Shown here: one piece after another, positions 1 through 56,716 of the stretch
Position numbering within the stretch: the first letter of the stretch is position 1
How the letters are laid out: every line of letters starts with the position of its first letter
From: Nemertoderma westbladi
Lineage: Eukaryota > Animalia > Xenacoelomorpha
Length of the DNA stretch: 64,000 nucleotides
Assembly: GCA_032718475.1 (NCBI GenBank)
Contig: JAUCBJ010008295.1
Span: forward strand, 1 to 64,000
Reading direction: 5' to 3'
Notes under the pieces: generated by a model
The model's database searches: none
Told to the model about the DNA's origin: nothing
Seen by the model: only the letters and a program-made list of their open reading frames with translations
Made by a program: the position numbers and the translations under genes

Positions 1-1899
1 CGCCAACATAGTAGCGGGCTGACGCGGGACGACGGGAGACAAATTATTGATTTCTCTCTCTGCTATCTGGACAGGGGTGTTTGCATGGGCTGTTCCACCG
101 GGTACAGGCAGTGTAGTGCTATGTAAAGGGAATTTAGAGTTAAGCTCTGGAAGTGTAGGGGTCTCTAGCACAGAAGTGACTTTGGGAATTACAGGCCTAA
201 TTATTTCAGGTTCATCGACTATAGTAGGGAGTCTTTTGACCTGGATAAATTGTTCTATAGGTTCTGCACTACCTAAATCTGTGCTAGTTAGCTGTCTTTT
301 AACAGCTGGGGGCAAATCAGGCAATTTACGACGGTAATATGTTTTTCTACGCCTACTTAGATGAGATCTATCTCCTCCGCCTTCAGGGTCGGTAGTATCG
401 CCTTCCTCCGATGATGTGTACCCCTGGCGCTTGGGAGTAGATTTTCTCATCATCTGCATTTGATTAGCAGTAAACTGTTTATTTATACTGTCTTGTGTCT
501 CTTGCAGATTCTCCAACTCCAGTTGGGTAGTCTGCTCAGATGCTCTCCTTTCTGCTTCTCTCACTGCCTTTGCCACCTTTCTTTCTGCTTCTACTTCTGC
601 CGCTGCTGTCTTTCTTTCTGCTGCTGCTTCTGCCGCCACTGCCTTTCTTTCGGCTTCTGCTTCTGCCGTAGCCGCCGCCATAGCCGCCGCCTTTTGTTCC
701 TCTATCCTTCTTTTCTTTATTTGTTCTTCTCGGACTCTAGTGAGGCGGAGTTTTTCATCACATTCAGCTTGGTTTGCAGCTAACATTTCGGCATCGATTG
801 AGTCCAACACAAGCTTGGTTCCTTCACTATTAGGGGAAAGTCCAGCCAGCCGTCTCCTCAACTCTTCGTCTCCTAAGAATCGCTGATAGTCGGACAAATA
901 AATGTCGATAGCGTCTCTAGTTCGCGGTTTCTCGGCGGCCTCTTCGCTTTCCGCTTGAGCAAGGGTGACATCAGTTGGTTCGGTGACATCAGTTGGTTCG
1001 GTGACATCAGTTGGTTCCTCATAGGTTGATCTCTCAGCCAGCTGGGATTTCCACTGGGCTGTTTCCTGTACTTTGAGATCTACCCGATGTAGCCAAGTTT
1101 TGACAGCAACCTGCAGCGACGTGTCCTGTCTTCTTTTGGAAGTTTCCTCAAAGGCTGAGAGGATTAGTCGAATGCGTAGGGTTCTTTCGCGTATTTGATA
1201 TAGCAGTTCTTCCTGCTCTTGAGGTCCGTGAGGTTGTCGAAACAGTTGTTCTTCCAATCGCTCCAAGGATCCGAAGAATCCCTGCACATATCCTGCTGCC
1301 GACCTCTTCCAAACAGCTGGATCCATTGTATCTTTAGCCACTCCCATCCTGTGTATATCTTCCCAAGTAGCCTCGGATAGATCCAACGGAAATCCGAGTC
1401 CGGGAAAGTTCCATTGTGATTCAACAATAGAGATCAATTCTTCCCTGGCGTATCCCGCGTAATTATCTTGGGTCGCTTGCTTATTCTTCGCCCAGTCGGC
1501 TTGATGTTCCTCCACCGCAATGAGTATAGTAGTTAGCACTGCAGCAGGAAGAGTAAGAAGGGGGTCCGAGTAGACTGTATCAGCCATCTGCACTCCATGT
1601 TCGGGAGTCAACTCTACAGTATCCGAACTGCTGGAGCTATCTGGTCTCTGGGAAGTAGGTTCTTGACCAAGATGTTGCTGCGATAGGACAGCTGCCTCTT
1701 GGTCCCGTTTTACCTGTGCCCGAGTGCCTATGATGGACCTATGGTGGACTAGCCTAGGGTCTGATACTACTGGAGGGATGACCTTTTTTACAGTAGGAGG
1801 TGAGCCGAACTCCTCTCTTATTCGCTCCACAATCCTATCGGAATCACAAATAGTTGTATCGATCAGACTGTCCGACAGGTTTTGCTGAGTGTCAGACAT
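1..1899 (-). CDS. gag: N-terminal part of BEL/Pao Gag polyprotein (runs off the window edge)
   Basis: ATG at 1899. The stretches I translated (e.g. WKRSAAGYVQGFFGSLERLEEQLF) match the E3 ORF1 and stay in frame to position 1. An in-frame 18-bp triplication lies at about 964-1018. Confidence 0.85.
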   Translation of the reverse strand, partial: MSDTQQNLSDSLIDTTICDSDRIVERIREEFGSPPTVKKVIPPVVSDPRLVHHRSIIGTRAQVKRDQEAAVLSQQHLGQEPTSQRPDSSSSSDTVELTPEHGVQMADTVYSDPLLTLPAAVLTTILIAVEEHQADWAKNKQATQDNYAGYAREELISIVESQWNFPGLGFPLDLSEATWEDIHRMGVAKDTMDPAVWKRSAAGYVQGFFGSLERLEEQLFRQPHGPQEQEELLYQIRERTLRIRLILSAFEETSKRRQDTSLQVAVKTWLHRVDLKVQETAQWKSQLAERSTYEEPTDVTEPTDVTEPTDVTLAQAESEEAAEKPRTRDAIDIYLSDYQRFLGDEELRRRLAGLSPNSEGTKLVLDSIDAEMLAANQAECDEKLRLTRVREEQIKKRRIEEQKAAAMAAATAEAEAERKAVAAEAAAERKTAAAEVEAERKVAKAVREAERRASEQTTQLELENLQETQDSINKQFTANQMQMMRKSTPKRQGYTSSEEGDTTDPEGGGDRSHLSRRRKTYYRRKLPDLPPAVKRQLTSTDLGSAEPIEQFIQVKRLPTIVDEPEIIRPVIPKVTSVLETPTLPELNSKFPLHSTTLPVPGGTAHANTPVQIAEREINNLSPVVPRQPATMLA

Positions 1900-4069
1900 G
1901 TTTAGTTATACAGTTGAATGTCTACTACTATAGTTTCAGTTAAAGCAAGTCTAGTAATTCAGTATGACCGCAAGCCTAGCGATTTATTACCGGTACCGTT
2001 ACTCGGTGTAACGTGATATATACACAATATATTAGAATACCGGTATGCTTATAATATATAAGTATTATTACAGACTAGATTTGTCACAGAGTACCGGTAT
2101 ATAATTTTAGCACAAATATATATATATATATAGTAGGCCTATAATGAATACCGGTATACAGCTTACACTTACAGCATGTAAGTATAATTATGAACTAGAA
2201 TTAATTACAGAGTACCGGTATGATTTCAGCTCAAATTTATAGAGATAAATATAATAAGCCTATAGTGAGTACCGGTATGTCAATTATTTTAGAATATTTG
2301 AATCTCTGAATATTTTAGGGCTACTTGGTTACTTTAACTTACTTTGTTACCGTTATTTAAGCAGTAGTCCAACTGATAGTGAGACCTAGTTTTTGTATGA
2401 CAGGCCTACTATTTATAAATCGTTTGATTTGATTTATAATATTTATATACCCTTTATATGGGTTTTTGTCAATATTTGAAATAAATGTTATTATTTCTGG
2501 GGGGTCACTACACAGAAGCTGAACGCCTCTTAAGTGAAGTGCTATTTATTTGACACTAAAACTGATAATTCTAATTTACCTAAGTTACTTAATACTACAA
2601 ATTACTTACGATACGGGTGAGATTAATTCTCTAATTAAACACAACAAAATATTACGTACGAATTTTTAGGGTAATTTTACAGGAAGTCTACAAACCAGTC
2701 TAACAAAGGGTTAGAATTCGGTTTATTACAACGGACAGGGTACTACGGTATTTGAAAATAATAAGTAGTAGTAAATATATTGCACTGTCCAGATAGGAAA
2801 ATACCACCGTCTGACGACCTATAACCGTATCGCTATAGGTACTACGTTATGTATCACGGATTGTTCCTACCCAGAAGCTAATAGAGCTAACGAATGTGCC
2901 TATCAACCACTTTACAACACAAATATACTGCCTACACTAATTACTTCGGATAGCACTGTACACTAAACCCTAAATTAGGTACAAGTACCGGTATAACAAA
3001 TAATCAGTAGTTAAATATACTTGAACAGTTAAAAGAACCACGGCATCTGCTGGAGTGACCGAAGCACAAAGTCGTCAGTCTTTACCTACGCCAAGCAGCC
3101 CTGATGTAGTACCGGGGTTAGTTTAACTATAACGGTATGTATAACAAGCACAATTACTGTAGGAATAAACTTGGGGACATGAATGTTGCGAATAATCGCA
3201 TAAACTCTGAATAATAAATATTACGCTACCCGTACAGAATACTCAAACAAATACAAACCAAAAACGCTGGCAGACTACTATTAAGCCTAAACAAACTACT
3301 GTATGTGCAGATTCTGAAACTGTTAGTTAGTATGCGTTCTAACACGGTAGTACGACTTACTCTTTAAGAGGGGATTGACCTTACCGCTTATGGCTGCCCC
3401 AACTTACTAACGGCACTTGATCAGACCAACTCTACACACGCAGCAATCCCTTCAGACCCAAAAATAGCTAGACAACGATCCAGCCTACAAATATTTGAGT
3501 AATAACTATTACGGTACCTGAACAGACCACACAAACGAACACAGGCCGAAACACTGGCAGACTACGATCAAGCCTAAATAAACTACGGTATATGCAGACT
3601 CTGAAACTGTTAGTTAGTATGCGTTCTAACACGGTAGTACGACTTATTCTTTAAGAGGGGATTGACCTTACCGCATATGGCTGCCCCAACTTACTAACGG
3701 CACTTTATCAGACAAACTCTACACACGCCGTAATCTCTCCAAACTCAACAACAGTCAGACAGCAGCTCAGCCTACAATTATCTGAACAATCTGAGCAGGG
3801 TCACACGCCTTCTGCTCAATATTAGCCTACTAGTAAATAAAACCGACAGAAATAAGTAGAATCTCAAATAAAAAATCAGGGCGGCCGTTCCCTGATTAAG
3901 TACCAAGACCTACCGGTATACAACAATCAAAATCGAATAATACTAATGTACTTGTACAGCAGTACCGGTACCGGTGATGACAGTTAGGCCTACTGACCTA
4001 CAGAAGCACCGGTTCAGTTTTACCAGTCACTACGGTATTTTGCAACCTTATTGCTTACTGCAATAAGAT

Positions 4070-4082
4070 TATAAACTGTTAC
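4070..4082 (-). promoter_or_regulatory. Non-tRNA primer-binding site of E1, complementary to LTR segment 4823-4835
   Basis: Plus-strand TATAAACTGTTAC (4070-4082) is the exact reverse complement of GTAACAGTTTATA (4823-4835) and abuts the LTR end. Confidence 0.8.
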
Positions 4083-5316
4083 TGTTCGCGCTTTTGAAGA
4101 CCTTTAGCAGTTTAACCTGCCAAAATTTATATGTCTTTTTGTTAATTAAAACCACTTTAGCATACGACAATAATTTATGCTAATACGCAAAACACTAGCC
4201 GAAGTCAGCCCATGCGCGATCATTCACCCGATGGATCTACACCCGGGAGACTGAATTCGGATGCTTAAATTTTATTATTGCAGTGTAAGGTTGCAGTGTA
4301 TACCTACTGTATTATTCAATAGATCGTTAATGTTTAATCTCTGACAGATATTATTGGCTTTCGGGAAATATTAACAGTTCCTTTAGGGCGTGGCGCTTTA
4401 TCTATTTAAACAGAACTAAGACTTATACTAAAACACAACGATACTGCTTATGATTAAAGTATAAAGCGTATTCTTTAGGAAATACTTTGTTACCAATCAC
4501 AATCATACACACTATTCTGCCGACAGTCAGTATATTTGATCACACATAAAGAGAGCAGTAATTGACTCACGTAGGGTCTGCTAAATAACATTGGATTCAA
4601 TACACACCACATTAATATAAATCGCAATTGTTATGTATAACCGGTCTCTCTAACCTGTAGTGTATCAAGAAAATTGGGAATTTGGGTGATTTATCCGTAT
4701 TATCCAAAGAGCAATATTTCCATCAACAAATAGGTACAATTAATAACTGACGGTAAAATAACAGTACAAACAATATGATTAATGCAATTAAATTAAGTGA
4801 GTAGTTAAGATTAGTTAATGAGGTAACAGTTTATACTTTCGATAATTTAAGCAGTTTACTAGAGTTCTTCCCTAAAGGCCGGTGTTTCTGGCTTAGACAG
4901 CAATAACAACAAAGTATCAAGTAAGAACAGTAAGACTGAACACTCTCCTTATGATCGACTGAAAAGCTACACGTCGACAGGAAAAATCGCTCCGATTGGC
5001 TCAAGCCAAACAAAGAACCGTGCGTCCAATGGCTGTTTCCATGTCAGCAACCAGCTGTTAGATGTCGTAATATGAATCATCACGGCTAAGCTGTGAAAGG
5101 TAGTTGGTGCATTACAGGTTTTTTGCCTTACCATGTCCGCCAAAACACGTATATAGCAGAATGATTTTTATGTCCGTTAAAACACCTGTAAAGGTACCTT
5201 GCGGGCGAGGGGAATATATATACAGTTAGAGAACCTTTTTAGAGTATTCCAGCGCCTGTGGGGAAACTGGATTGCGAAGCAAAAGGGGCCAGTTATATCC
5301 CACAGAAGCTTTTACA
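4083..5316 (-). repeat. 5' LTR of E1 (1234 bp)
   Basis: TG...CA termini on the minus strand. The R/U5-side portion is homologous to the E2/E3 LTRs, while the U3-side portion is divergent. Confidence 0.85.
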
Positions 5317-7493
5317 GAATGTTTCAGTTAGAGTATTTCAGTATGGTATTTCAGTATGGTATTTCAGTACGGTATATTTTAGTACGGTATATTTTAGTAC
5401 AGTATTTCAGTATGGTATTTTAGTACTGTATTTTAGTACGGTATTTCAGTATGGTATTTCAGTACGGTATTTTAGTACAGTATTTCAGTACAGTATTTCA
5501 GTATGGTATTTCAGTACGGTATATTTTAGTACGGTATATTTTAGTACAGTATTTCAGTACAGTATTTCAGTATGGTATTTCAGTACCGGATTTTACTTAG
5601 AATGTTTCAGTTAGAGTATTTCAGTATGGTATTTCAGTATGGTATTTCAGTATGGTATTTCAGTACGGTATATTTTAGTACGGTATATTTTAGTACAGTA
5701 TTTCAGTATGGTATTTTAGTTCTGTATTTTAGTACGGTATTTCAGTATGGTATTTCAGTACGGTATTTTAGTACAGTATTTCAGTACAGTATTTCAGTAT
5801 GGTATTTCAGTACGGTATTTTAGTACAGTATTTCAGTATGTATTTTAGTACGGTATTTCAGTATGGTATTTCAGTACGGTATTTTAGTACGGTATTTCAG
5901 TATGGTATTTCAGTACCGGATTTTACTTAGAATGTTTCAGTTAGAGTATTTCAGTATGGTATTTCAGTATGGTATTTCAGTATGGTATTTCAGTATGGTA
6001 TTTCAGTATGGTATTTCAGTATGGTATTTCAGTACGGTATATTTTAGTACTGTATTTCAGTATGGTATTTCAGTACGGTATATTTTAGTACTGTATTTCA
6101 GTATGGTATTTTAGTACTGTATTTTAGTACGGTATTTCAGTATGGTATTTCAGTATGGTATTTCAGTACGGTATATTTTAGTACTGTATTTCAGTAGGGT
6201 ATTTCAGTACGGTATTTCAGTATGGTATTTCAGTATGGTATTTCAGTACGGTATATTTTAGTACTGTATTTCAGTATGGTATTTTAGTACTGTATTTTAG
6301 TACAGTATTTCAGTATGGTATTTTAGTACTGTATTTTAGTACAGTATTTCAGTATGGTATTTTAGTACTGTATTTTAGTACGGTATTTCAGTATGGTATT
6401 TCAGTATGGTATTTCAGTACGGTATATTTTAGTACTCTATTTCAGTAGGGTATTTCTGTACGTTATTTCAGTACGGTATTTTAGTACAGTATTTCAGTAT
6501 GGTATTTTAGTACTGTATTTTAGTACGGTATTTCAGTATGGTATTTCAGTATGGTATTTCAGTACGGTATATTTTAGTACTGTATTTCAGTATGGTATTT
6601 CAGTATGGTATTTCAGTATGGTATTTTAGTACAGTACTTCAGTATGGTATTTTAGTATGGTATTTCAGTACGTTATTTCAGTACATTATTTTAGTACAGT
6701 ATTTCAGTATGGTATTTCAGTATGGTATTTCAGTACCGGATTTTACTTAGAATGTTTCAGTTAGAGTATTTCAGTATGGTATTTCAGTACGGTATTTCAG
6801 TATGGTATTTCAGTATGGTATTTCAGTACGGTATATTTTAGTACTGTATTTCAGTATGGTATTTTAGTACTGTATTTTAGTACAGTATTTCAGTATGGTA
6901 TTTTAGTACTGTATTTTAGTACAGTATTTCAGTATGGTATTTTAGTACTGTATTTTAGTACGGTATTTCAGTATGGTGTTTCAGTATGGTATTTCAGTAC
7001 GGTATATTTTAGTACTCTATTTCAGTAGGGTATTTCTGTACGTTATTTCAGTACGTTATTTTAGTACAGTATTTCAGTATGGTATTTTAGTACTGTATTT
7101 TAGTACGGTATTTCAGTATGGTATTTCAGTATGGTATTTCAGTACGGTATATTTTAGTACTGTATTTCAGTATGGTATTTCAGTATGGTATTTCAGTATG
7201 GTATTTTAGTACAGTACTTCAGTATGGTATTTTAGTATGGTATTTCTGTACGTTATTTCAGTACATTATTTTAGTACAGTATTTCAGTATAGTATTTCAG
7301 TATGGTATTTCAGTACGGAATTATAATTAGAGTGTTTCAGTTAGAGTATTTCAGTATGGTATTTCAGTAGGCTATTTCTGTACGTTATTTCAGTACGGTA
7401 TTTTACTACTGTATTTTAGTACAGTATTTCAGTACAGTATTTTAGTACAGTATTTTAGTACGGTATTTCAGTATGGTATTTCAGTACGGTATA
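5317..7493. repeat. 13-bp satellite (GTATTTCAGTATG variants) with higher-order structure
   Basis: Tandem units are visible directly. A spacer ACCGGATTTTACTTAGAATGTTTCAGTTAGA recurs at about 5585, 5915 and 6735, with a variant at about 7315. A higher-order block repeats at a 580-bp offset (6393 vs 6973). Confidence 0.95.
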
Positions 7494-16516: not shown

Positions 16517-17754
16517 TGTTCGCGCTTTCAGACCTTTGGCAGTTTAACCCGCCAAATTAGAATGTCTTCTAGATAATAAATCTGCTTTTTAGTCTATGAC
16601 AAGTATTTGATTCACTACACTAGTCGAAACCAATCCGTGCGCGACCATTCACCCGCTGGATATTCCCGGGAGATTGGGTTCGACGGTTTAATTTTTATTG
16701 CTATGTAAGCCTAATGTATTATTCGACTGACAGTATTATAATCTCTGACAATATTATTCACCTTCGGTAATATTAACAGTTCCTTTAGGACGTGGCGCTT
16801 TATCTATATAAACAGAGTTATGACTTAAACTACTCCCAACGATATGGCTTAATTATAATCCACATATATGACGCATTCTTTAGGAATTGCTTCTTTAACA
16901 GACTCACTCATACACTATGCTGCACAATACTGCACACTAATCTGCCAATCTTCACTGATTTTAGTCACATATAAAAGGAACACAGGCTGACTCATGTAGG
17001 GTCTATCAAATAACATTAGATTCACTTCAAACCACTTTAACATAAGTCACAATCGTTTATCTGTAACCCTTCTCTCTTACCTTCGGTATATCAAGAATAT
17101 TGGGTTTCGGGGTTGTTTATCGTTATTCCAAATATAATTATTCATCAACCATATTATGAAGAACTGACGGTAAATAGCAGTATAACAATATAAAAGTATG
17201 CACAATGTTACACAGTATGCAGTGTATGCAGTACTGCAGTATGCAGACATCAGTCATCAGTATGCAGTCCGTTTGTTAAAGGATATATGCCCTTTATAAT
17301 TAAACCTACTAGTGTACGACTAAAAAGCAGTACAGCACAAAATACTTCTAAGCCGTTCTTTCTTTGGCTCAAGACTGAATGTAAACACTGCACATAGGCA
17401 TTGCGTCATTTCTCGGAAATTTTCTGTACAAGGAGCCACAAAAACGCTCTCATTGGCTGACTGAACTGAGAGACGCCGTAGAACAAAGGAAATCAACACG
17501 TATGAATGTCAGCTGTTAACCGTAGTCATAGTAACTACTGTTCAAGAGTAGCTATCACCCCTTTGCGTCACGAATTGCCATAGAATCATAAAATATACCT
17601 TTCACAGTACACATACGGAGGAAATAGGTCTTAGATCCTCTAAAAACACCGATACAGCAATAATACGGTCTCTTACACTTATTAAATCAACTACAGAGTA
17701 TTTTAATGTAAAAGATAATAAAAATAACGGGGCAATTCAGCAAAGGCTTTTACA
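16517..17754 (-). repeat. 3' LTR of E2 (1238 bp)
   Basis: TG...CA termini, preceded on the minus strand by the purine tract GGGAGCGG (17755-17762). Confidence 0.92.
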
Positions 17755-17832
17755 CCGCTCCCAGAAAATGGGATTTTCAGTCTATAAAATATAAAAATCA
17801 CAGTTTCTAAAACATAAAGATACTCTAAACAG

Positions 17833-18130
17833 TTAGTCTTTCTTGCGCGGACGGCGTTTACGCAGTTTCTTAAGATTAACAAGAGTCCTTTTCTCTTTGG
17901 GGGGAGCCACTTTACTAGGAGGGCCATAACTCCTGGGTGAAGGGTGCAATATGATTGCATCAGAAGGTGTAGGTTTATGGTCGAGGTATCTGCCGTTTCG
18001 ATATGCTTCTCCTCGAGCTGATTTTCCTCCGCTCGTAGCTGGATACGTTCATCCAAAACTCTCGCAGAGAATAGGATCGTCCAAGTTCGATAACTTCTTA
18101 GAGATTCTGGATTTCCCAATCGAATTGAGA
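17833..18130 (-). pseudogene. Remnant of the C-terminus of the 3' accessory ORF of E2
   Basis: Translates PTPSDAIILHPSPRSYGPPSKVAPPKEKRTLVNLKKLRKRRPRKKD*, matching the end of ORF 54195-55415. Confidence 0.75.
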
Positions 18131-29198: not shown

Positions 29199-29210
29199 TA
29201 TATCCTTTAA
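29199..29210 (-). promoter_or_regulatory. Non-tRNA primer-binding site of E2, complementary to LTR segment 29971-29982
   Basis: TATATCCTTTAA (29199-29210) is the reverse complement of TTAAAGGATATA (29971-29982) and abuts the LTR. Confidence 0.8.
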
Positions 29211-30447
29211 TGTTCGCGCTTTCAGACCTTTGGCAGTTTAACCCACCAAATTAAGATGTCTTCTAGATATTAAATCAGTTTTTAGTCTATGACAAGTATT
29301 TGATTCACTACACTAGTCGAAACCAATCCGTGCGCGACCATTCACCCGCTGGAGATTCCCGGGAGATTGGGTTCGACGGTTTAATTTTATTGCTATGTAA
29401 GCCTAATGTATTATTCGACTGACAGTATTATATAATCTCTGACAATATTATTCACCTTCGGTAATATTAACAGTTCCTTTAGGACGTGGCGCTTTATCTA
29501 TATAAACAGAGTTATGACTTAAACTACTCACAACGATATGGCTTAATTATAATTCACATATATGGCGCATTCTTTAGGAATTGCTTCTTTAACAGACTCA
29601 CTCATACACAATGCTGCACAATACTGCACACTAATCTGCCAATCTTCACTGATTTTAGTCACATATAAAAGGAACACAGACTGAATCATGTAGGGTCTAT
29701 CAAATAACATTAGATTCACTTCAAACCACTTTAACATAAGTCACAATCGTTATTGGTAACCTTTCTCTCTTACCTTCGGTATATCAAGAATATTGGGTTT
29801 CGGGGTTATTTATCGTTATTCCAAATATAATAATTCATCAACCATATTATGAAGAACTGACGGTAAATAGCAGTATAAAACAACAATGAAAACACTGATT
29901 GTTATGAGTTTGCAATGTTTCAGCAGTCAGTATGTATGATCAGTTAGCAGTGATTCCATGAGTCAGGTAGTTAAAGGATATATGTCCTTGTAATTAAACC
30001 TACTAGTGTAAGACTAAAAACAGTAAAGCACAAAATACTTCCAAGCCGTTCTTTCTTTGGCTCAGGACTGAATGTAAACACTGCACATAGGCATTGCGTC
30101 ATTTCTCGGAAATTTTCTGTACAAGGAGCCACAAAAACGCTCTAATTGGCTGACTGAACTGAGAGACGCCGTAGAACAAAGGAAATCAACACGTATGAAT
30201 GTCAGCTGTTAACCGTAGTCATAGTAACTACTGTTCAAGAGTAGCTATCACCCCTTTGCGTCACGAATTGCCATAGAATCATAAAATATGCCTTTCACAG
30301 TACACATACGGAGGAAATAGGTCTTAGATCCTCTAAAAACACCGATACAGCAATAATACGGTCTCTTACACTTATTAAATCAACTACAGAGTATTTTAAT
30401 GTAAAAGATAATAAAAATAACGGGGCAATTCAGCAAAGGCTTTTACA
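29211..30447 (-). repeat. 5' LTR of E2 (1237 bp)
   Basis: Homologous to 16517-17754, with TG...CA termini. Confidence 0.92.
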
Positions 30448-33190: not shown

Positions 33191-33580
33191 GTCTGCTAAT
33201 CCTGTAATCAGATAAACTTTATTTGTAATGCTGTACCGGTTACCGGTAGAGCAGTACTAGGTTTACTACTGTACAGTACTACAGAAGAGCGGTAATGCTG
33301 TAATGCTGTAATGCTAATGCAGTAATGTCTAAATACAGAAATACAGTCGACTGTTGACTGTAACTGGTAACTGTACCTGTGTACGACTGTAGCATTATAC
33401 CGATCCGGTAATATTACCGGTACTGGTACCAGGCACCAGGCAGCCAGGTACATATGTACATATTACTGTATTAATACAGTAATATCAGTATCAGATACTG
33501 AGATAGGCAGATAGGTGTCAGATTATAAATAAATACGGTAATTTAATTAGCCTACTGGTTAGCTGTAGGGTTATGCAGTT

Positions 33581-40224: not shown

Positions 40225-41447
40225 TGTAAAAGCCTTTGCTGAATTGCCCCGTTATTTTTATTATCTTTTACATTAAAATACTCTGTAGTTGATTTAATAG
40301 GTGTAAGAGACCGTATTATTGCTGTATCGGTGTTTTTTAGAGGATCTAAGACCTATTTCCTCCGTATGTGTACTGTGAAAGGCATAGTTGATGATTCTAT
40401 GGCAATTCCATGACGCAAAGGGTGATAGCTACTCTTGAACAGTAGTTACTATGACTACGGTTAACAGCTGATATTCATACGTGTTGATTTTCTTTGTTCT
40501 ACGGCGTCTCTCAGTTCAGTCAGCCAATCAGAGCATTTTTATGGCTCTTGTAGAGAAATTTCCTAGAAATCACGTAATGCTTTATGGGCAGTGTTGACAT
40601 TCTGTCCTGAGCCAGGAGAGAGCGGCTTGGAAATATTTTGTGCTTTTCTGTTTTAGCTTAACACTAGTAGGCTTAATTATAAGGACATATATCCGTTATC
40701 AAACTAATGAACTAAACACACAACACTTAATATCTTACTGACACTGCTTACTGTGTAACACTGTGCATACTTTATATTGTTATACTGCTATTTACTGTCG
40801 GTCCTTCATAATATGGTTGATGAATTATTATATTTGGAATAACGATAAATAACCCCGAAACCCAATATTCTTGATATACCGAAGGTAAGAGAGAAAGGTT
40901 ACATATAACGATTGTGACTTATGTTAAAGTGGTTTGAAGTGAATCTAATGTTATTTGATAGACCCTACATGAGTCAGTCTGTGTTCCTTTTATATGTGAC
41001 TAAAATCAGTGAAGATCGGCAGATTAGTGTGCAGTATTGTGCAGCATTGTGTATGAGTGAGACTGATAACGAAGCATTTCCTAAAGAATGCGCCATATAT
41101 GTGAATTATAACTAAGCCATATCGTTGTGAGTAGTTTAAGTCATAACTCTGTTTTTATAGATAGAGCGCCACGTCCTAAAGGAACTGTTAATACTTCCCG
41201 AAGGTGAATAATATTGTCAGAGATTATATAATACTGTCAGTCGAATAATACATTAGGCTTACATAGCAATAAGATTAAGCCGTCGAACCCAATCTCCCGG
41301 GTATATCCAGCGGGTGAATGATCGCGCACAGATTGGTTTCGACTAGTGTAGTGAATTAAATACTTGTCATAGGTTAAAAGTGATTTATTATCTAGAAGAC
41401 ATCCTAATTTGGCGGGTTAAACTGCCAAAGGTCTGAAAGCGCGAACA
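40225..41447 (+). repeat. 5' LTR of E3
   Basis: TGTAAAAGCC...GCGCGAACA, a direct repeat of 55494-56716. Confidence 0.97.
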
Positions 41448-41458
41448 ATAACGGATAT
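41448..41458 (+). promoter_or_regulatory. Non-tRNA primer-binding site of E3, complementary to LTR segment 40689-40699
   Basis: ATAACGGATAT is the exact reverse complement of ATATCCGTTAT. There is no TGG-type tRNA PBS. Confidence 0.8.
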
Positions 41459-42345: not shown

Positions 42346-43687
42346 CATTTTGTTTGAGTGGTTTGTACGCGTAGCGTAATATTTATTATTCAGAGTTTAT
42401 GCGATTATTCGCAACATTCATATCCCCAAGTTTGTTCCTACAATAATTGTGTTTGTTATACATACCGCTATAGTTAAATTAACCCCGGTACTACACGGGC
42501 TGCTTGGCGTAGGTAAAGACTGGTGATTTTGTGCACCGGTCACTCCAGCAGATGCCGTGGTTCTTTTAACTGTTCAAGTATATTTAACTACTGATTATAT
42601 GTTGTACAAGTACTCGTACCTAATTTAGGGTTTAGTGTACAGTGCTTTCCGAAAGTAATTAGTGTAGACATTATATTTGTGTTGTAAAGTGGTTAATAGG
42701 CACGTTCGATTAGCTCTATTAACTTCTAGGTAGGAACACTCCGTGATACATAACGTAGTACCTATAGCGATACGGCTATAGGTCGTCAGGCGGTGGTATT
42801 TTCCTATCTGGACAACGCAGTGTATTTACTACTACGTATTATTTTCAAATACCGCAGTACCCTGTCCGTTGTAATAACCAGAATTCTAACCCTTTGTTAG
42901 GCTGGTTTGTAGACTTCTTGTAAAATTACCCTAAAAATTTCGTATTTGTGTTTTTTGTAAATTTTTGTGTTTATTTAGAGATTGTAATCTCACCCGAATT
43001 GTACGTAATTTGTAGTATTAAGTAACTTAGGTAAATTAGCATTATTTGTTTTAGTGTCCTATAAGTAACACTTCACTAAAAGCGCACCGCTTTGTGTAGT
43101 GATTACTCCCCAGAAATAATAACACCCCATTAAAACGGGAATATATTTATTATAAATCAAATCTAACGATTTATAAATAGTAGGCCTACCATACAACCAT
43201 TAGGTCTCAATATCAGTTGGACTACTGCTCAAATAACGGTAATAAAGTAAGTAAAGTAACCAAGTAACCCTAAAATTCAGAAATTCAATTATTAAAAATA
43301 ATTGATATACCGGTATTTACGATAGGCCTATTATCTTTATTTCTATAAATTTCGGCTGAAATTATACCGGTACTTGTAATTAATTCTAGTCCAGAATTAT
43401 ATATACTACAAACTGTAAGCTGTATACCGGTATTCCCGATAGGCCTATTATATATTTATATATATTTGTGCTAAAATTATACCGGTATTCTGTGATAAAC
43501 CTAGTCTGTAATAATACTTATATAGTTATATATACTATAAGCATACCGGTATTCTAATATATTATATATATCACGCTACACTGAGTAGCAGTATCGGTAA
43601 TTAATTACTAGGCTAGCAGTTAATACTGAGTTACTAGACTTGCTCAGACTGTAATATAGCAGTAGGCATTCAACTGTACACATAAAC

Positions 43688-46600
43688 ATGTCTGATACTA
43701 AGCAGAACCTGTCAGACAGTTTATTAGATGTAACTATCTGCGACTCAGATAGAGACGTAGAACCGTCTGGTCGTAAGTTCAGTTCACCTCCCACTGTGAG
43801 GAAGGTCACCCCTCCAGGAGTAATAAGAGAACCTAGGCTGGTCCAACATCGTAGGTCTATCATAGGCACGCGAGCTCAGGTCAAGCGGAACCAAGAAGCA
43901 GCGGAACAGCGACAACCCGCGAGCCAAGAACTTATTTCTCAGCGGCCCGACAGCTCCAGTAGTGAAGATACTGCAGAACTGACACCCGAGCGCGGAGCAA
44001 GGATGACGGATGAGGCTTATTCAGATCCCCTTCTCATCCTTCCTGCAGCCGTACTCACTAGGTTATTGATCGCTGTGGAAGAACACCAGATCGATTGGGC
44101 GAGAAGCCAGCGTTCAACTAGAGATAGTTATGCTGGATACACAAGGGAAGAACTGAAGTCCATGGTCGAGTCACAATGGAACTTCCCCGGACCCGGACTC
44201 CCGTTTGATTTATCAGAAGCTGCCTGGGAAGACATACACCGGATGGGAGTAGCCAAGGAAACCATCGATCCAGCTGTGTGGAAGAGGTCCGCAGCCAGAT
44301 ACGCACAGGGATTCTTCAGCTCTATGGAGCGAGTAAAAGGACAACTGTTTCAACAACCACAAGGACCTCAAGAGCAGGGACAACTGCTTTATCAAGTTAG
44401 AGAAAGAATTCTGCGAATCAGGCTAATCTTATCAGCCTTTGAGGAGGCTTCTAAACGAAGACAAGACACGTCGTTGCAAGTTGCCGTAAAGACTTGGTTT
44501 CAACGGGTGAGTCTCCAGGTTCAAGGAACAGCTCAGTGGAAAGCTCAGCTGGAGGAGCGATCAACCCATGGAGAATCAACAGACGCTACTTTTTCCCAAG
44601 TGGAAAGTGAAGCGACGGCAGAGAAACCACATAAGAGGGATGCCATTGACATCTATCTGTCAGACTATCAACGTTTTTTAGGTGATGACGAGTTGAGGAG
44701 AAGGTTAGAGGGACTTAGCCCTAATAGTGAAGGAACCAAGCTTGTGTTGGATGCCATCGATGTGGAAATGAGGGCTGCGAATCAGGCTAAATTTGATGAA
44801 CAACTCCGCATCACACGAGTCCAAGAAGAACAAGTAAAGAAAAAACGTATAGAAGACAGAAAGAAAGCAGCAGTGGTAGCTGCAGAAGCAGAAAGAAAAG
44901 CGGCAGCGGCAGAGGCAGCGGCAGAGGCAAAAGTGGCAGAAGCAGAACGGAACGCGGCTGAAGAAATCACCCAATTAGAATTGGAAAACATTCAGGAGAA
45001 TCAAGACTGCATAAATAAACAGTTAACAGCTAGTAATATGCAGATGATGAATCGATCTACTCCCAAAAGACAGGGATATACATCATCTGAAGAAGGCGAT
45101 ACCACCGATACTGAAGGCAAAGGAAATAGATCTCGTCTAAGCAGACGTAAAAGAACATTCCACCGTCAGAAATTGCCTGATTTGCCTCCAGCTGTTAGAA
45201 GGCAACTTAATAACACCAACTTAGGTAGTACAGAGCCCACAGACCAAATAATTAAAATAGAAAGACTCCCTACTATAGTAGATGAGCCTGAAATAATTAG
45301 GCCTGTTCTTGAAATCACCCCTTCTGTGATAGACACACCTGTACTCCCTGAACCTACCTCTCAATTCCCGTTGCACAGCACTAAGCTACCTGTGCCCAGT
45401 AGAACAGCCCATGAGACAGTTCATGCTCTGGACTCCGAGCGGAATGTTCATGATTTGTCGCCTGTTGTCCCTCGTCCGCCCGCTACAACGTTGGCGGATC
45501 CCGTTTCGGCGGTTGATTGGGTGGACGAGAGACGGCGGGGGATGGACATTCTCCTCGGAAAGATGGAGGAGAATCAAAGGCGCTCCTCCCAACAGGTCCG
45601 AGAGTTAGAAGGGACTGTTCAACAGTTAAAGGGAACCGTAAAGGAAAGTAGGTTAGAGTTGCAGGAAGTGCAGCAAAATATCGCGTTGGAACGCGATAAA
45701 TTAGTAAATTTACAAAAGGGTATACTACCACCCCTTGTAACAATGTGTCAACCTGTTAGGTCTGAAGTATCTCATGCGCAAGGTGTGGAGCCTACACGCA
45801 TCTATACTGCTAGCGAAGTAGAAACTCCTATAGTGAACCCTATTAAGGGTAATTATAGACCTGTTGATAATGATATTCCATATAGAACGGATCATAATCC
45901 GAGAAATTTATATACCGATAACTCGATATTAAATAACACGATGGCCCAAGAAAGTTTTACGCGTCAAATGGCTAGAACCGAAGCCCGGCAAGCGGTAAAG
46001 GTGGGAGAGATCGTCAAGTTCAATGGAGATGAGATGAAATGGTTACCTTTTAATGAATATTACAAAGATAACATACAGAACTCTGTACTATCTAATGGAG
46101 AAAAACTTAGATACCTCATCGAGTGCTTGGAAGGATCTCCCAAGTTAATGGCGTTAAAGTTTATTGGACATCCAGACGGATTAAGACAAGTTTGGGATAC
46201 ACTAAACATCAGGTATGGTAATAGGAATAACATCGCTGGGTATTTGTATGCAAAGTTGGTAGCGCCCCGAAAGTTTATTAGCAGCGGGATTATCGAGTTT
46301 TCCGATGAGATCCAGGAGATCTGCAGACAATTAGATTGGCTAGGTAAGTCTCATGAGTATCAGAACACTATGGTTATTAGAGCAGTAGCTTCTACTTTAC
46401 CGAAGGGTGGAGTAGGCACACGCTGGGATAAGAAAGTGTTATATATGATGGAACAACAACGACGAGACCCTACCATGGCTGATCTCATGTCATTCCTAGA
46501 TGGAGAAGTGAAATTACAGCTCCTGAAACTGTCCAGAGAGAAGACACCGGATAACAAGGTAAGTGAAAAACCCGTCTCTAGGAGAAAGGTAACACCAGTG

Positions 46601-47950
46601 TGTTATACAGACGACGGCGAAAGCCAGACTTCTCAAGGAGAAGATAGCGGGAAGGACACTGAGAGATCTTATTACGTAAATAAAATGCCTAAAGATCAGG
46701 TAAGTAAATTCAAGTCTCGAACAAATGACAGGAGAGAACAGGTAAGAAAAACTCCTCCTACGTCTCCCAAGAGAATTCAGGTGAGAAAGCCCGAAGAAAA
46801 GGCAAGTGTGCACAATGTGACTCAGATTAAGGTGAGTAACATCAAACCAAAATGTGCGCTATGTGATGGGACCCATCGCTTGAATATGTGTGATGAATTT
46901 CTAAAGAAATCATTAACTGAGAGACGTGAAGTCATGTGGGATAAGCGGTTATGTTATAATTGCCTCAGACCAGGACACCAAAGGCGAACCTGTTATTCTG
47001 ACATAAAATGTGCAAAGTGTGGTGCGAAACATCATATCTTGTTGCACGCTGAATTCGATCGAAATAGTCCTAATCAGGTAAGTGATTCCGAACTACATGT
47101 CCAATTCAGTGATGTGAACGACACTGATCAATCTGAGATGGAAGGATTCTATACGGACGAGTTCTCCGACGAAAACGAATCCTGTTACATGATAAATACC
47201 GCAGTGTATCGAGCACTCACATATGAAAAAGATACAGACAGCGACTTCACTCTAACTACTTCTGAGCGACAACCATCGTGGAAAGCACCAACTTCCAATG
47301 TAGGAATCCGAGAATTTCCTGTAGTCCAGTTACGGGTCCATGGACCTCAGAAGAGCTATATAGTGAACGCCCTCCTGGACTCCGGCAGCACAGGAACATT
47401 CATTGATAAAGAACTAGCCGAAGACATCTTCGCTGGACAACCTAAGTTCCGAACCAAGCTAAATATGTCAGGCATTATGCAAGTTTGGAAATCTACAGTA
47501 ACAGCTGATTATTATGTAGGCGCGTTGTCCACCCCACAAGACAAACTAGGAGAACATAGCATAAGGTCAGTGAAATTGGTGGCTATAAAGAACTTCGCTA
47601 CTACTCAAGCAGACCTTTATAATTGGGACGAGGATGAGAGCATCCAACATCTTAAGATACCTCGATTCCAGACTGATTATCCTGGAGTGCAAATACTCCT
47701 CGGCCAAAACGCGCATGAGGCGCTGGAGACATTGGAGAAACGGCCTGCTCAACCGCAGCCACTACAGACCTATGCGGTAAGAACTAGAGTAGGTTGGTAC
47801 TTTACTGGCCCTTCCCGTAGAACACTCAGAGAAAGACTACCGCAAGAGCGCGTCTACCAGGTGAGTGAATGGGAAGATGATACTAGTGAGGGAGACGATT
47901 TAACTGAGGGAACCCCATACTCCTCAGATAACGACGACGTGCACCATTGA
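43688..47950 (+). CDS. gag: BEL/Pao Gag-protease polyprotein (1420 aa)
   Basis: DUF1759-like region (KFNGDEMKWLPF...EKLRYLIECLEG), the BEL triple knuckle (CALCDGTHRLNMC, CYNCLRPGHQRRTC, CAKCGAKHHILLH) and protease ALLDSGS. Confidence 0.95.
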   Translation: MSDTKQNLSDSLLDVTICDSDRDVEPSGRKFSSPPTVRKVTPPGVIREPRLVQHRRSIIGTRAQVKRNQEAAEQRQPASQELISQRPDSSSSEDTAELTPERGARMTDEAYSDPLLILPAAVLTRLLIAVEEHQIDWARSQRSTRDSYAGYTREELKSMVESQWNFPGPGLPFDLSEAAWEDIHRMGVAKETIDPAVWKRSAARYAQGFFSSMERVKGQLFQQPQGPQEQGQLLYQVRERILRIRLILSAFEEASKRRQDTSLQVAVKTWFQRVSLQVQGTAQWKAQLEERSTHGESTDATFSQVESEATAEKPHKRDAIDIYLSDYQRFLGDDELRRRLEGLSPNSEGTKLVLDAIDVEMRAANQAKFDEQLRITRVQEEQVKKKRIEDRKKAAVVAAEAERKAAAAEAAAEAKVAEAERNAAEEITQLELENIQENQDCINKQLTASNMQMMNRSTPKRQGYTSSEEGDTTDTEGKGNRSRLSRRKRTFHRQKLPDLPPAVRRQLNNTNLGSTEPTDQIIKIERLPTIVDEPEIIRPVLEITPSVIDTPVLPEPTSQFPLHSTKLPVPSRTAHETVHALDSERNVHDLSPVVPRPPATTLADPVSAVDWVDERRRGMDILLGKMEENQRRSSQQVRELEGTVQQLKGTVKESRLELQEVQQNIALERDKLVNLQKGILPPLVTMCQPVRSEVSHAQGVEPTRIYTASEVETPIVNPIKGNYRPVDNDIPYRTDHNPRNLYTDNSILNNTMAQESFTRQMARTEARQAVKVGEIVKFNGDEMKWLPFNEYYKDNIQNSVLSNGEKLRYLIECLEGSPKLMALKFIGHPDGLRQVWDTLNIRYGNRNNIAGYLYAKLVAPRKFISSGIIEFSDEIQEICRQLDWLGKSHEYQNTMVIRAVASTLPKGGVGTRWDKKVLYMMEQQRRDPTMADLMSFLDGEVKLQLLKLSREKTPDNKVSEKPVSRRKVTPVCYTDDGESQTSQGEDSGKDTERSYYVNKMPKDQVSKFKSRTNDRREQVRKTPPTSPKRIQVRKPEEKASVHNVTQIKVSNIKPKCALCDGTHRLNMCDEFLKKSLTERREVMWDKRLCYNCLRPGHQRRTCYSDIKCAKCGAKHHILLHAEFDRNSPNQVSDSELHVQFSDVNDTDQSEMEGFYTDEFSDENESCYMINTAVYRALTYEKDTDSDFTLTTSERQPSWKAPTSNVGIREFPVVQLRVHGPQKSYIVNALLDSGSTGTFIDKELAEDIFAGQPKFRTKLNMSGIMQVWKSTVTADYYVGALSTPQDKLGEHSIRSVKLVAIKNFATTQADLYNWDEDESIQHLKIPRFQTDYPGVQILLGQNAHEALETLEKRPAQPQPLQTYAVRTRVGWYFTGPSRRTLRERLPQERVYQVSEWEDDTSEGDDLTEGTPYSSDNDDVHH

Positions 47951-50786
47951 GGTCGCTAAAGGAACGGTAGAGTGCTTAAAAAGAGGTGGGTTTCGATTAA
48001 CGAAATTCACCAGCAACTCCCGTGAGTTTCTGGAGTCGATCCCTGCGGAAGATCGAGGGGCGAAAGATCTAGATTTGATCAAAGATGATCTGCCAGAAAC
48101 CAAGACACTCGGCTTGAAATGGGACACAGAGCGAGATATCCTGTTTTTCCAGCTAAAACAGCGAGATAATCCAGTTCGAACCAAACGGATTTGCTTAAGT
48201 ATACTGAGCACTTATTTCGATCCATTGGGATTTATTAGTCCAGTTATCTTGATTGCTCGTAGTTTGGTACATCAAATGTGGCTTGAAAACCACTCATGGG
48301 ACGATCCACTTAAGGGAGAATTATTGAAGAAGTGGATGAAATGGGAAGATTCTCTGCCGGCTATCGAGGATTTTATAATTTCCCGTTCATATTTTGGTCA
48401 TGTTCTCCCTACGTATTCCTATCAACTCCATGTGTTTGGAGACGCCAGCGATATGGGAATAGGTATAGTAGCCTATCTAAGAGTGGAAACTCCGGATGGA
48501 ATCAAAGTTGCCTTGGTTACTTCTAAGGCATTAATCAACAACAAGTTGAAAGTTCCTCGAGCGGAGTTAAAAGCGGCTCTATACGCTACAGCCATCGGCC
48601 GGAATGTAACAGAACAGATTGACTATCCATTAGAGAAAACTGTCTATTGGACCGACGCTTTACTCGTGTTAGAGTATATAACCAATGAAGTCTGTCAGTT
48701 CAGCGTCTTCGTTACCAACAGAGTAGCCATCATACTTAGTCGCACGACGATGGACCAATGGAGACATTGCCCCGGAACGATTAATCCAGCAGACATCGCC
48801 TCCCGAGGAGCGACTCCCAAGGAATTGGTAAATACTCCCGAATGGTTAGGTGGACCCGACTTTCTCTACAAAGAAGAAGAAGAATGGCCTCCCCATCTCA
48901 CAACAGCAGAGATCAGACAGGCCAAGGGAGCGGAGAAAGTTAAACCCAAAACTCGAGCGAGTAAATCGAAGTTGTTTAAACCTGCGGTTGATCTATCTGT
49001 ATTATTTACTTCCGGAGAGGATGCTTTGGATCAGAAACCCACCGCCACGACTAAAGAAGTCTTGGAAATCCGTGACAAGGATTGGAAATCTGGAATACCA
49101 GATATCGCGCAAGGACTCTCACCCCTCCTGCAGAGAGTGATACGTCATTACAGTTCCTGGAATCGGCTCTGTAAAGCCGTCACCTATTTAAAACGATGTT
49201 TTCATCATCGTTACTCCGGGACAAAGACCAATAGTGATGATGCTCCATCAACATCTGCACGAGTCCATGTTGTTAAAGATCTTCCCCAATACAAGATATC
49301 CGACAGGTTTCTAAAGGAGAAGATCAGTTACCAGGAGCATGATGAAACCAACAAACAGATGCTGAGACTCCTACAATGCTATGAGGATCCCGATAAGTAT
49401 TTCCTGTTGTTAAGAAATCCGCAGATGCACTTAAGGGATCGCTTCTCTAGTACCATGATAGATGGGTTAATACGTGTTGGAGGCAGGCTCACCAACGCCC
49501 CATTATCCTTTGACACTAAATTTCCCATACTCATTAGAAATCTTGACATACAAATCAAGATGATTGTGGATGTTCATAGCAAACTGTATCATGCTGGAAG
49601 AGAACGAGTTCTGAGCGAAATTCGAACTCGCTACTATTTTTATAAACCCCGTAGGGCTCTGAACCAAGTCCTTAGGAACTGCATACCCTGTAGGAAAGCA
49701 TTCAGTAGGCCTTTGACACAGCGAGAGGCAGAATTACCTAGGGAAAGAGTAAGCTTCTACGAACCACCCTTTACTAATACCGGTGTGGATTTATTTGGCC
49801 CTATTGAAGTATATCGTGCCCGGACTATAGTCAAGAGATGGTGTGTCATCTTCGTTTGTATGACTTGTAGAGCTATCCATCTCGATATGGTAAACGATCT
49901 ATCCACCAACAGCTTCGTGTTGAGTTTACGACGACAGATCGCTCGCTTCGGAACCAGTAACACGATGAGATCGGATAAGGGAACGAACTTCATTGGCGCC
50001 AACAACGAAATTCAAGCTTACGTAAAGGACTGGAACAAAAGACAGGTGGACGATCAGCTAAGGATAACAGCGTCTAGCTGGACCTTCAACGCCGCCGACG
50101 CCCCTTGGTGGGGAGGAAGTTGGGAGAGATTGATTAGGAGCGTGAAGACTGCGTTCCACTTTATTGTGCCTTGTCGCGCTTATCTCACCGACGAACTATT
50201 GCGGACGTTAATGGAGGAAATCGCCGCCTATCTCAACGAAAGACCGCTTATGCCAGTCTCTTCAAGTCCTGATTCCCTGGAAGCGCTAACACCCGCGCAC
50301 TTTCTACTGAAGAAACCCGTAGCCATGCTCCCACGATCGGAGATCACAGACGGAGACGAGTACTGCCGTCGAACCTGGCAACTTATGCAGTTGCTATCCC
50401 GTCGTTTCGCTGACCATTTCGAGAAACATTACCTGCCCACTCTACAACTTCGAACTAAGTGGTTTGCGCAGCAAGAAAACGTCAGCGCTGGAGACATGGT
50501 GCTTATTGTGGACCCCGATCTCCCACGTAAGCGATGGCAAACAGGACGTATCATCGAGACTCATATCTCGAGCTATGGTTTGGTGCGATCAGTAGAACTC
50601 GTCGTCATGCGGCGTAACTTTAAGAAACCAGGGATAGTCTTTGAGACTCAACAGCTCAATCGCCCAGTGGGTCGTTTATGTTTACTGGAAAGAGACAGAG
50701 AGCTCTCCGGAAACTATGGAAGGCAAGAAACTCTTCCCACGACCACTTCCCTAATCCAACCGACATCTAGGGACTCCCCAACTTAA
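47943..50786 (+). CDS. pol: Pol remnant: RT C-terminal tail, RNase H and integrase (out of frame with gag-PR, RT catalytic core missing)
   Basis: GGFRLTKFTSNS and KTLGLKW (RT end). LHVFGDAS, PRAEL, YWTDA and NPADIASRG (RNase H). H..LYHAG...CIPC, GVDLFGP, SDKGTNF and GGSWERL (integrase HHCC and DDE). Confidence 0.92.
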   Translation, partial: TIEVAKGTVECLKRGGFRLTKFTSNSREFLESIPAEDRGAKDLDLIKDDLPETKTLGLKWDTERDILFFQLKQRDNPVRTKRICLSILSTYFDPLGFISPVILIARSLVHQMWLENHSWDDPLKGELLKKWMKWEDSLPAIEDFIISRSYFGHVLPTYSYQLHVFGDASDMGIGIVAYLRVETPDGIKVALVTSKALINNKLKVPRAELKAALYATAIGRNVTEQIDYPLEKTVYWTDALLVLEYITNEVCQFSVFVTNRVAIILSRTTMDQWRHCPGTINPADIASRGATPKELVNTPEWLGGPDFLYKEEEEWPPHLTTAEIRQAKGAEKVKPKTRASKSKLFKPAVDLSVLFTSGEDALDQKPTATTKEVLEIRDKDWKSGIPDIAQGLSPLLQRVIRHYSSWNRLCKAVTYLKRCFHHRYSGTKTNSDDAPSTSARVHVVKDLPQYKISDRFLKEKISYQEHDETNKQMLRLLQCYEDPDKYFLLLRNPQMHLRDRFSSTMIDGLIRVGGRLTNAPLSFDTKFPILIRNLDIQIKMIVDVHSKLYHAGRERVLSEIRTRYYFYKPRRALNQVLRNCIPCRKAFSRPLTQREAELPRERVSFYEPPFTNTGVDLFGPIEVYRARTIVKRWCVIFVCMTCRAIHLDMVNDLSTNSFVLSLRRQIARFGTSNTMRSDKGTNFIGANNEIQAYVKDWNKRQVDDQLRITASSWTFNAADAPWWGGSWERLIRSVKTAFHFIVPCRAYLTDELLRTLMEEIAAYLNERPLMPVSSSPDSLEALTPAHFLLKKPVAMLPRSEITDGDEYCRRTWQLMQLLSRRFADHFEKHYLPTLQLRTKWFAQQENVSAGDMVLIVDPDLPRKRWQTGRIIETHISSYGLVRSVELVVMRRNFKKPGIVFETQQLNRPVGRLCLLERDRELSGNYGRQETLPTTTSLIQPTSRDSPT

Positions 50787-55485: not shown

Positions 55486-55493
55486 GGGAGCGG
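55486..55493 (+). promoter_or_regulatory. Polypurine tract
   Basis: GGGAGCGG directly abuts the 3' LTR and is identical in E2. Confidence 0.75.
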
Positions 55494-56716
55494 TGTAAAA
55501 GCCTTTGCTGAATTGCCCCGTTATTTTTATTATCTTTTACATTAAAATACTCTGTAGTTGATTTAATAGGTGTAAGAGACCGTATTATTGCTGTATCGGT
55601 GTTTTTTAGAGGATCTAAGACCTATTTCCTCCGTATGTGTACTGTGAAAGGCATAGTTGATGATTCTATGGCAATTCCATGACGCAAAGGGTGATAGCTA
55701 CTCTTGAACAGTAGTTACTATGACTACGGTTAACAGCTGATATTCATACGTGTTGATTTTCTTTGTTCTACGGCGTCTCTCAGTTCAGTCAGCCAATCAG
55801 AGCATTTTTATGGCTCTTGTAGAGAAATTTCCTAGAAATCACGTAATGCTTTATGGGCAGTGTTGACATTCTGTCCTGAGCCAGGAGAGAGCGGCTTGGA
55901 AATATTTTGTGCTTTTCTGTTTTAGCTTAACACTAGTAGGCTTAATTATAAGGACATATATCCGTTATCAAACTAATGAACTAAACACACAACACTTAAT
56001 ATCTTACTGACACTGCATACTGTGTAACACTGTGCATACTTTATATTGTTATACTGCTATTTACTGTCGGTCCTTCATAATATGGTTGATGAATTATTAT
56101 ATTTGGAATAACGATAAATAACCCCGAAACCCAATATTCTTGATATACCGAAGGTAAGAGAGAAAGGTTACATATAACGATTGTGACTTATGTTAAAGTG
56201 GTTTGAAGTGAATCTAATGTTATTTGATAGACCCTACATGAGTCAGTCTGTGTTCCTTTTATATGTGACTAAAATCAGTGAAGATCGGCAGATTAGTGTG
56301 CAGTATTGTGCAGCATTGTGTATGAGTGAGACTGATAACGAAGCATTTCCTAAAGAATGCGCCATATATGTGAATTATAACTAAGCCATATCGTTGTGAG
56401 TAGTTTAAGTCATAACTCTGTTTTTATAGATAGAGCGCCACGTCCTAAAGGAACTGTTAATACTTCCCGAAGGTGAATAATATTGTCAGAGATTATATAA
56501 TACTGTCAGTCGAATAATACATTAGGCTTACATAGCAATAAGATTAAGCCGTCGAACCCAATCTCCCGGGTATATCCAGCGGGTGAATGATCGCGCACAG
56601 ATTGGTTTCGACTAGTGTAGTGAATTAAATACTTGTCATAGGCTAAAAGTGATTTATTATCTAGAAGACATCCTAATTTGGCGGGTTAAACTGCCAAAGG
56701 TCTGAAAGCGCGAACA
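55494..56716 (+). repeat. 3' LTR of E3
   Basis: Direct repeat of 40225-41447. Confidence 0.97.

What the first reader, a model, noticed from the sequence alone, without database searches (positions are those of the whole stretch)
4070..4835. Divergent subfamily E1 keeps a 13-bp primer/PBS duplex with a different sequence
E1 is the most diverged copy and its U3 region is barely alignable to E2/E3. Even so, its PBS and upstream LTR segment pair over 13 bp at the same spacing and register. This is the strongest single argument that pairing, not sequence, is under selection. Inference: because the primer acts in cis, each subfamily can drift to a private primer sequence.
Basis: seen in the sequence. 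Interest (0 to 1): 0.75.

Follow-up and report, generated by a model that had tools for sequence, protein, structure and literature searches.

The report
Self-primer in BEL/Pao retrotransposon family
Three related BEL/Pao jumping genes carry, where a host tRNA normally lands to start DNA copying, 11-13 bases that pair perfectly with a piece of their own terminal repeat and change together with it, so they likely start copying themselves with their own RNA, which is described for other retrotransposon groups but was not found in print for this one.

Summary
The 13-bp match is real (12 of 20,000 shuffles). E1, E2 and E3 are BEL/Pao LTR retrotransposons without a tRNA site. Each PBS pairs perfectly with its own LTR segment (13, 12, 11 bp); E1's segment pairs only 5-6 of 13 with the others' PBSs. 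Homology of the E1 segment is likely (CCAAT spacing 164/166/163 nt), but alignments place it 15-40 nt off. Best reading: Tf1-like self-priming. The covariation is better explained by reverse transcription rewriting the PBS from the primer than by selection alone: the duplexes hold no G·U pairs, whereas the flanking hairpins do. Among 70 related BEL/Pao loci, 8 have a PBS matched only after splicing an LTR intron (null mean 0.3); others have an unsplit match like E1-E3. Placement of E3 with them is only moderately supported. No RNA data: transcription start, cleavage and cis action are untested. E3 lacks the RT core yet has 99.8% identical LTRs. Not found in my literature searches, but this scan noted the same phenomenon in other genomes.

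The parts
4083..5316 (-). E1 5' LTR, 1234 bp, TG...CA
4823..4835 (-). E1 putative self-primer (13 nt, ends in AC)
4070..4082 (-). E1 PBS, directly after the LTR, begins GT, no TGG
4995..4999 (-). CCAAT box, 164 nt before the E1 primer (166 in E2, 163 in E3)
4935..4939 (-). TCAGT initiator-like motif (label recalled), one candidate transcription start about 100 nt before the primer
   Evidence: untested
4650..4654 (-). Splice-donor-like site downstream of the primer, at the same place in all three elements (GTTAG in E1, GTAAG in E2/E3)
   Evidence: use untested
4271..4276 (-). AATAAA, candidate poly(A) signal (present in E1 and E2, altered in E3)
4103..4124 (-). Hairpin before the LTR end, kept in E1-E3 with G·U wobble changes
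4046..4068 (-). Hairpin directly after the PBS, kept in E1-E3
1..1932 (-). E1 gag region, broken, runs off the window
29211..30447 (-). E2 5' LTR
29971..29982 (-). E2 putative self-primer (12 nt)
29199..29210 (-). E2 PBS
16517..17754 (-). E2 3' LTR, 94.5% identical to the 5' LTR, same 12-nt primer, no target-site duplication
40225..41447 (+). E3 5' LTR
40689..40699 (+). E3 putative self-primer (11 nt)
41448..41458 (+). E3 PBS
43655..47950 (+). E3 gag-protease frame (DUF1759)
47904..50786 (+). E3 pol remainder (Peptidase_A17, Integrase_H2C2, DUF5641); the RT core upstream of it is deleted
55486..55493 (+). E3 polypurine-tract-like site before the 3' LTR
55494..56716 (+). E3 3' LTR, 99.8% identical to the 5' LTR; 5-bp duplication ACACT within a 22-bp satellite

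Best explanation
E1, E2 and E3 are BEL/Pao LTR retrotransposons whose PBS pairs perfectly with an 11-13-nt segment of their own LTR, and they likely prime reverse transcription with that segment of their own RNA instead of a tRNA. Inferred steps: the LTR segment in the transcript anneals to the PBS about 760 nt downstream; a cut at its 3' end (RNase H by analogy with Tf1, recalled) frees a 3'-OH; minus-strand DNA is made across the rest of the LTR; plus-strand synthesis then copies the attached primer, so the PBS is rewritten from it. A mutation in the primer would thus be matched in the PBS within one cycle, letting subfamilies drift to private primer/PBS pairs. RT would be supplied in trans to deleted copies such as E3. 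Related elements build the same kind of primer across a splice junction; the E family carries it unsplit.
For: Perfect pairing in 3 of 3 elements at offset 0 from the LTR end, rare in shuffles. PBSs differ at 5 of 11 (E1/E3), 7 of 12 (E1/E2) and 2 of 11 (E2/E3) ungapped positions and all are compensated; independent drift gives about 1e-6. No TGG in any PBS. 0 G·U in 36 duplex pairs, against 6 G·U of 51 cells in the flanking hairpins. Relatives: 8 of 70 loci (7 families) have a splice-junction complement of 11 or more nt, null mean 0.3, maximum 2 in 40 rounds. With G·U allowed, 14 of 78 are pure Watson-Crick (null 0.5) and 1 has G·U (null 1.5). The 10 LTRs with tRNA-type PBS among the 20 tested show at most 5 pairs. 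In reads, the only PBS substitutions at 1% or more within the duplex are the two E2-type ones, which E2's primer compensates.
Against: No RNA data; no run on record as RNA. The E1 segment begins TATAAA, which could be a TATA box upstream of the transcript. Alignments do not place it in register. Predicted folds keep the duplex only if the RNA starts within about 15 nt of the primer in E1 and E3; with 100 nt of leader it costs 3.7-11.8 kcal/mol, while promoter motifs hint at a start about 100 nt upstream. A primer variant seen in reads predicted a PBS change that was not seen at 1% or more. E3 is a long branch; its grouping with the self-primer elements has SH-aLRT 88 in one tree and is unresolved in another. 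Only three copies link primer to PBS.
Confidence: 0.78

Rival explanations
1. The segment is the primer but is delivered in trans, from short LTR-only transcripts or the 3' LTR part of a co-packaged RNA, not from the 5' end of the same molecule.
For: Folding loses the cis duplex once the leader is longer than about 20-50 nt. In two spliced relatives a TATA box lies 133-140 nt before the donor, so their primer is internal. Poly(A) signals lie 8-96 nt after the acceptor in 7 of 9 spliced relatives, so short spliced LTR RNAs are possible.
Against: Each element matches its own LTR better than its neighbours', which trans supply among co-existing subfamilies would tend to blur. Long-range fold predictions are unreliable.
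Confidence: 0.1
2. The pairing is a long-range RNA helix for packaging, dimerisation or translation control, kept by selection; priming uses something else.
For: Two conserved hairpins flank the site, so the region is structured.
Against: The helix starts exactly at the LTR end, has primer-like length and has no G·U, unlike those hairpins. No alternative tRNA site is present.
Confidence: 0.08
3. E1's match is chance or a non-homologous look-alike of the E2/E3 pairing, and its PBS is primed by a host RNA fragment.
For: Alignments shift E1's segment by 15-40 nt, and a 7-nt partial copy lies 23 nt upstream in E1. Host RNAs could not be searched, as no genome is held.
Against: 12 of 20,000 shuffles; CCAAT spacing conserved within 3 nt; four different PBS sequences in one family argue against one host primer.
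Confidence: 0.04

Closest known systems
Tf1/Tf2/Tj1 and the Tf1/sushi group (Ty3/gypsy) self-priming
   Same: PBS directly after the 5' LTR, complementary to a segment of the element's own LTR instead of a tRNA (PMC4600332 and PMC10085805, passages).
   Different: Different superfamily. The primer lies 750-770 nt from the LTR end. It is not shown to be the RNA 5' end. The predicted flanking structures are two local hairpins; the three-duplex 'pretzel' was not established. Relatives split the primer with an intron.
TAR lineage (Houba, Osr-1) of plant Ty1/copia
   Same: Self-priming predicted from LTR/PBS complementarity of 10 or more bases (PMC6317226, passages).
   Different: Copia, plants; no intron-split primer mentioned in the passages seen.
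Canonical BEL/Pao elements such as Achilles
   Same: Gag DUF1759, Peptidase_A17, integrase and DUF5641 domains, TG...CA LTRs, 5-bp duplication.
   Different: Achilles has a tRNA-Tyr PBS (PMC4580426, passages); E1-E3 have none, have 1.2-kb LTRs, and E3 lacks the RT core.
Retroviral PBS inheritance from the tRNA primer
   Same: [quoted passage not shown]
   Different: There the primer is a fixed host tRNA, so the PBS reverts; here the primer is element-encoded, so both would drift.

Membership tests
BEL/Pao LTR retrotransposons | DUF1759 gag, Peptidase_A17, integrase and DUF5641 in BEL/Pao order | tested here: met
BEL/Pao LTR retrotransposons | TG...CA LTRs, polypurine tract, target-site duplication | tested here: met
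   E3 meets all; E2 has no duplication; E1's 3' end is outside the window
BEL/Pao LTR retrotransposons (autonomous) | RT core with YVDD | tested here: not met
   Homologues align only after their YVDD motif; deleted in E3 and E2; E1's pol lies outside the window
tRNA-primed BEL/Pao | PBS starting TGG, complementary to a tRNA 3' end | tested here: not met
   No TGG after any of the three 5' LTRs
Tf1-type self-priming mechanism | PBS complementary to own LTR over 10 or more nt | tested here: met
Tf1-type self-priming mechanism | Primer is the 5' end of the transcript | not testable with these tools
   Only assembled contigs available, none on record as RNA; folding and motifs point in different directions
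Tf1-type self-priming mechanism | Three-duplex 'pretzel' around the primer/PBS helix | tested here: inconclusive
   Two conserved local hairpins found; other helices differ among the predicted folds
Tf1-type self-priming mechanism | Cleavage after the primer and extension by RT | not testable with these tools
   Needs biochemistry
Tf1/sushi group (membership) | Ty3/gypsy chromovirus pol | tested here: not met
   Domains and homologues are BEL/Pao
Splice-built self-primer BEL/Pao group (this scan's notes and loci here) | GT..AG intron splitting the primer | tested here: not met
   Primer contiguous in E1-E3; no acceptor inside it
Splice-built self-primer BEL/Pao group (this scan's notes and loci here) | pol falls in the same clade | tested here: inconclusive
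   FastTree 0.958; unresolved; SH-aLRT 88 with a long branch

The most novel reading that the evidence does not exclude
A large clade of animal BEL/Pao retrotransposons abandoned tRNA priming for a primer assembled by the host spliceosome across an intron in the LTR. Reverse transcription of spliced RNA repeatedly erased that intron, leaving ready-made primers as in E1-E3, and because the PBS is recopied from the primer each cycle, primer/PBS pairs drift as private, subfamily-specific keys.
Probability: 0.45. Interest if true: 0.82.

Novelty: new variant of a known kind. Interest (0 to 1): 0.6.

Why it matters
Self-priming is described for Ty3/gypsy (Tf1/sushi) and predicted for one plant copia lineage. 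If right, it extends to the third LTR superfamily, in a high-copy animal family, so tRNA independence arose or survived repeatedly. It also gives a testable rule: an element-encoded primer rewrites its own PBS, so perfect covariation without G·U marks priming rather than mere RNA structure. LTR annotation tools that require a tRNA PBS would miss such elements.

Tried and rejected
No whole genome is held, so more linked copies and host RNAs could not be searched. No RNA holder listed. The LTR-end pattern found 0 matches in metagenome contigs; viral contigs gave no relatives. A loose scan using only GT/AG barely separated from decoy dinucleotides (27 of 70 at 11 or more nt vs about 19), so strict splice motifs were used. 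L005 was first labelled a contiguous self-primer and carries that label in the trees; it lies in what reads as coding sequence and is rejected. In one search two hits were indexing artefacts and L082's hits there are not at its LTR end. Extension of the E1-E3 primers by splicing: no fitting donor or acceptor. The predicted PBS change for a rare primer variant was not seen; the variant is probably under the 1% threshold and would pair by G·U, so the test is inconclusive. The careful tree did not finish. No tRNA gene in the window and no meaningful Rfam match in the E1 LTR region. Two primary Tf1 papers were not held. Three BEL/Pao papers hold no mention of PBS or tRNA priming.

Full report
Context. 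The window is satellite-rich eukaryotic DNA with three related LTR elements. E3 (40225-56716, +) has 1223-bp LTRs 99.8% identical and a 5-bp duplication. E2 (16517-30447, -) has LTRs 94.5% identical and no duplication. E1 (-) has its 5' LTR at 4083-5316 and runs off the window. Domains are BEL/Pao; the 113 homologues found are at best 36% identical over most of the query, and the named ones come mostly from invertebrates. Full-length homologues align to E3 only after their YVDD motif, so the RT core is deleted. E3 is therefore a young non-autonomous copy. The family is abundant in the host: 11,392 contigs of one run lay on 956 bases.

Observation. 4823-4835 is the exact reverse complement of 4070-4082, which follows the LTR's last base directly. 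E2 and E3 have the same arrangement with 12 and 11 bases, 772 and 759 nt from the LTR end against 753 in E1. Shuffles reached the observed length in 12, 16 and 43 of 20,000 cases. E1's segment pairs with only 5-6 of 13 bases of the other PBSs. The PBSs differ at 5 of 11, 7 of 12 and 2 of 11 positions and every change is matched.

Homology. With primers masked, alignments under 8 gap settings put the E1 segment 24-26 nt from E3's and 15-40 nt from E2's; the region aligns at about 50%, and forcing register costs 9-34 units. In favour: the CCAAT box lies 164, 166 and 163 nt upstream, and the 35 nt upstream are similar (p 0.009, 0.085, 0.008). I judge homology likely, not shown.

Selection or copying. 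[quoted passage not shown] A self-primer would rewrite its PBS the same way. This predicts strict Watson-Crick pairing, and the three duplexes have 0 G·U in 36 pairs, while the two flanking hairpins have 6 G·U in 51 cells and vary mostly on one side.

Relatives. Scans gave 112 BEL/Pao loci (80 kept of 528; 32). Of 20 LTRs with ends taken from repeat alignment, the 10 with a tRNA-type TGG site (6 are near-copies) showed at most 5 self-pairs. In several others the PBS complement is split by a GT..AG intron, seen before I consulted earlier notes. Of 112 loci, 70 had 600 or more bases upstream (42 dropped). A strict blind scan found 8 of 70 (7 families) with 11-13-nt junction primers; swapped-PBS null mean 0.3, maximum 2 in 40 rounds. 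Adding permuted contigs (78 loci) and relaxing the acceptor gave 14 pure Watson-Crick hits (12 families; null 0.5) and 1 with G·U (null 1.5). Most junction primers end in AC, as E1's does; E2's and E3's do not. Using that motif, chosen after the fact, 6 of 78 loci have an unsplit match of 11 or more (null 0.095 in 200 rounds), 5 of them credible. L040 is unsplit, groups with spliced L033 and L067 at support 100, and shares their 9 bases after the acceptor, which suggests intron loss.

Placement. FastTree puts E3 in a group (0.958) with all self-primer loci and none of 15 labelled tRNA-type; L086, inside it, has a TGG site that may be tRNA-type. On 37 rows, IQ-TREE left E3 unresolved under LG+G4 and grouped it at 88 under the mixture model, with a 1.89 branch. 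An independent origin in the E family is not excluded.

Reads. Within the duplex only the two E2-type PBS substitutions reach 1%, and a fourth PBS haplotype with an E1-type LTR end appears in three runs; its primer is unknown. A rare primer variant had no matching PBS change at 1%. Contigs cannot link primer to PBS, and none is on record as RNA.

Geometry. Predicted folds form the duplex at mean probability 0.93-0.95 if the RNA starts at the primer, and near 0 if it starts about 100 nt upstream; the switch occurs at 20 nt in E1 and E3. This weakly favours a Tf1-like 5' primer. Promoter motifs, and TATA boxes 133-140 nt before the donor in two spliced relatives, weakly favour an internal one. 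Unresolved.

Known work. Self-priming is described for Tf1/sushi and predicted for TAR copia (PMC6317226, PMC4600332, PMC10085805, PMC3601003; passages). Achilles uses tRNA-Tyr (PMC4580426, passages). Searches (listings only) and term look-ups in PMC554778, PMC3118150, PMC2774666 and PMC13524379 showed no BEL/Pao self-priming. The library lacks most subscription papers; supplements and repeat databases were not seen and could mention it. RNase H cleavage in Tf1 is recalled. Earlier notes of this scan report the same phenomenon in other genomes; they are leads, not support, and none matched this DNA.

Verdict. A real feature, likely a self-primer, a new variant of a known mechanism. Shown: pairing, covariation, family, RT loss, junction matches in relatives. 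Inferred: priming, PBS recopying, cis action, descent from spliced forms.

Noticed in passing
window 47904-47950: E3 lacks the RT core yet has 99.8% identical LTRs and long open gag and integrase frames: a recently mobile non-autonomous element.
   Followed up: partly
window 50786-55493: A 4.7-kb region after pol holds extra frames, one of 417 aa with Cys/His knuckle-like motifs (zf-CCHC_3 E 0.17, below cut-off); function unknown.
   Followed up: partly
window 37189-40224 and 56717-59742: E3 sits inside a 22-bp satellite; E1's LTR starts just beside a 13-bp satellite (5333-7492).
   Followed up: no
window 41448-43687: About 2.2 kb of leader between PBS and gag, with 18 ATGs counted from the primer and 289-bp tandem repeats; the conserved donor-like site in the LTR may splice around it.
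   Followed up: no
window 16517-30447: E2 has no target-site duplication and LTRs only 94.5% alike, possibly a recombinant; both LTRs keep the same 12-nt primer while its flanks differ.
   Followed up: partly
window 33569-34366: An open frame with a GNAT acetyltransferase domain (E 9e-15), probably a host gene.
   Followed up: no
L006, L010, L011, L013, L016, L027, L032, L033, L039, L067, L070, L089, L098: BEL/Pao loci whose PBS is matched by an exon-exon junction in the LTR; most share a GGGGCCGG-type polypurine tract.
   Followed up: yes
L081-L112: 32 BEL/Pao loci lie in prokaryote genome records, probably host contamination of bins or insertions; two are in a Wolbachia chromosome record with LTR pairs.
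   Followed up: no
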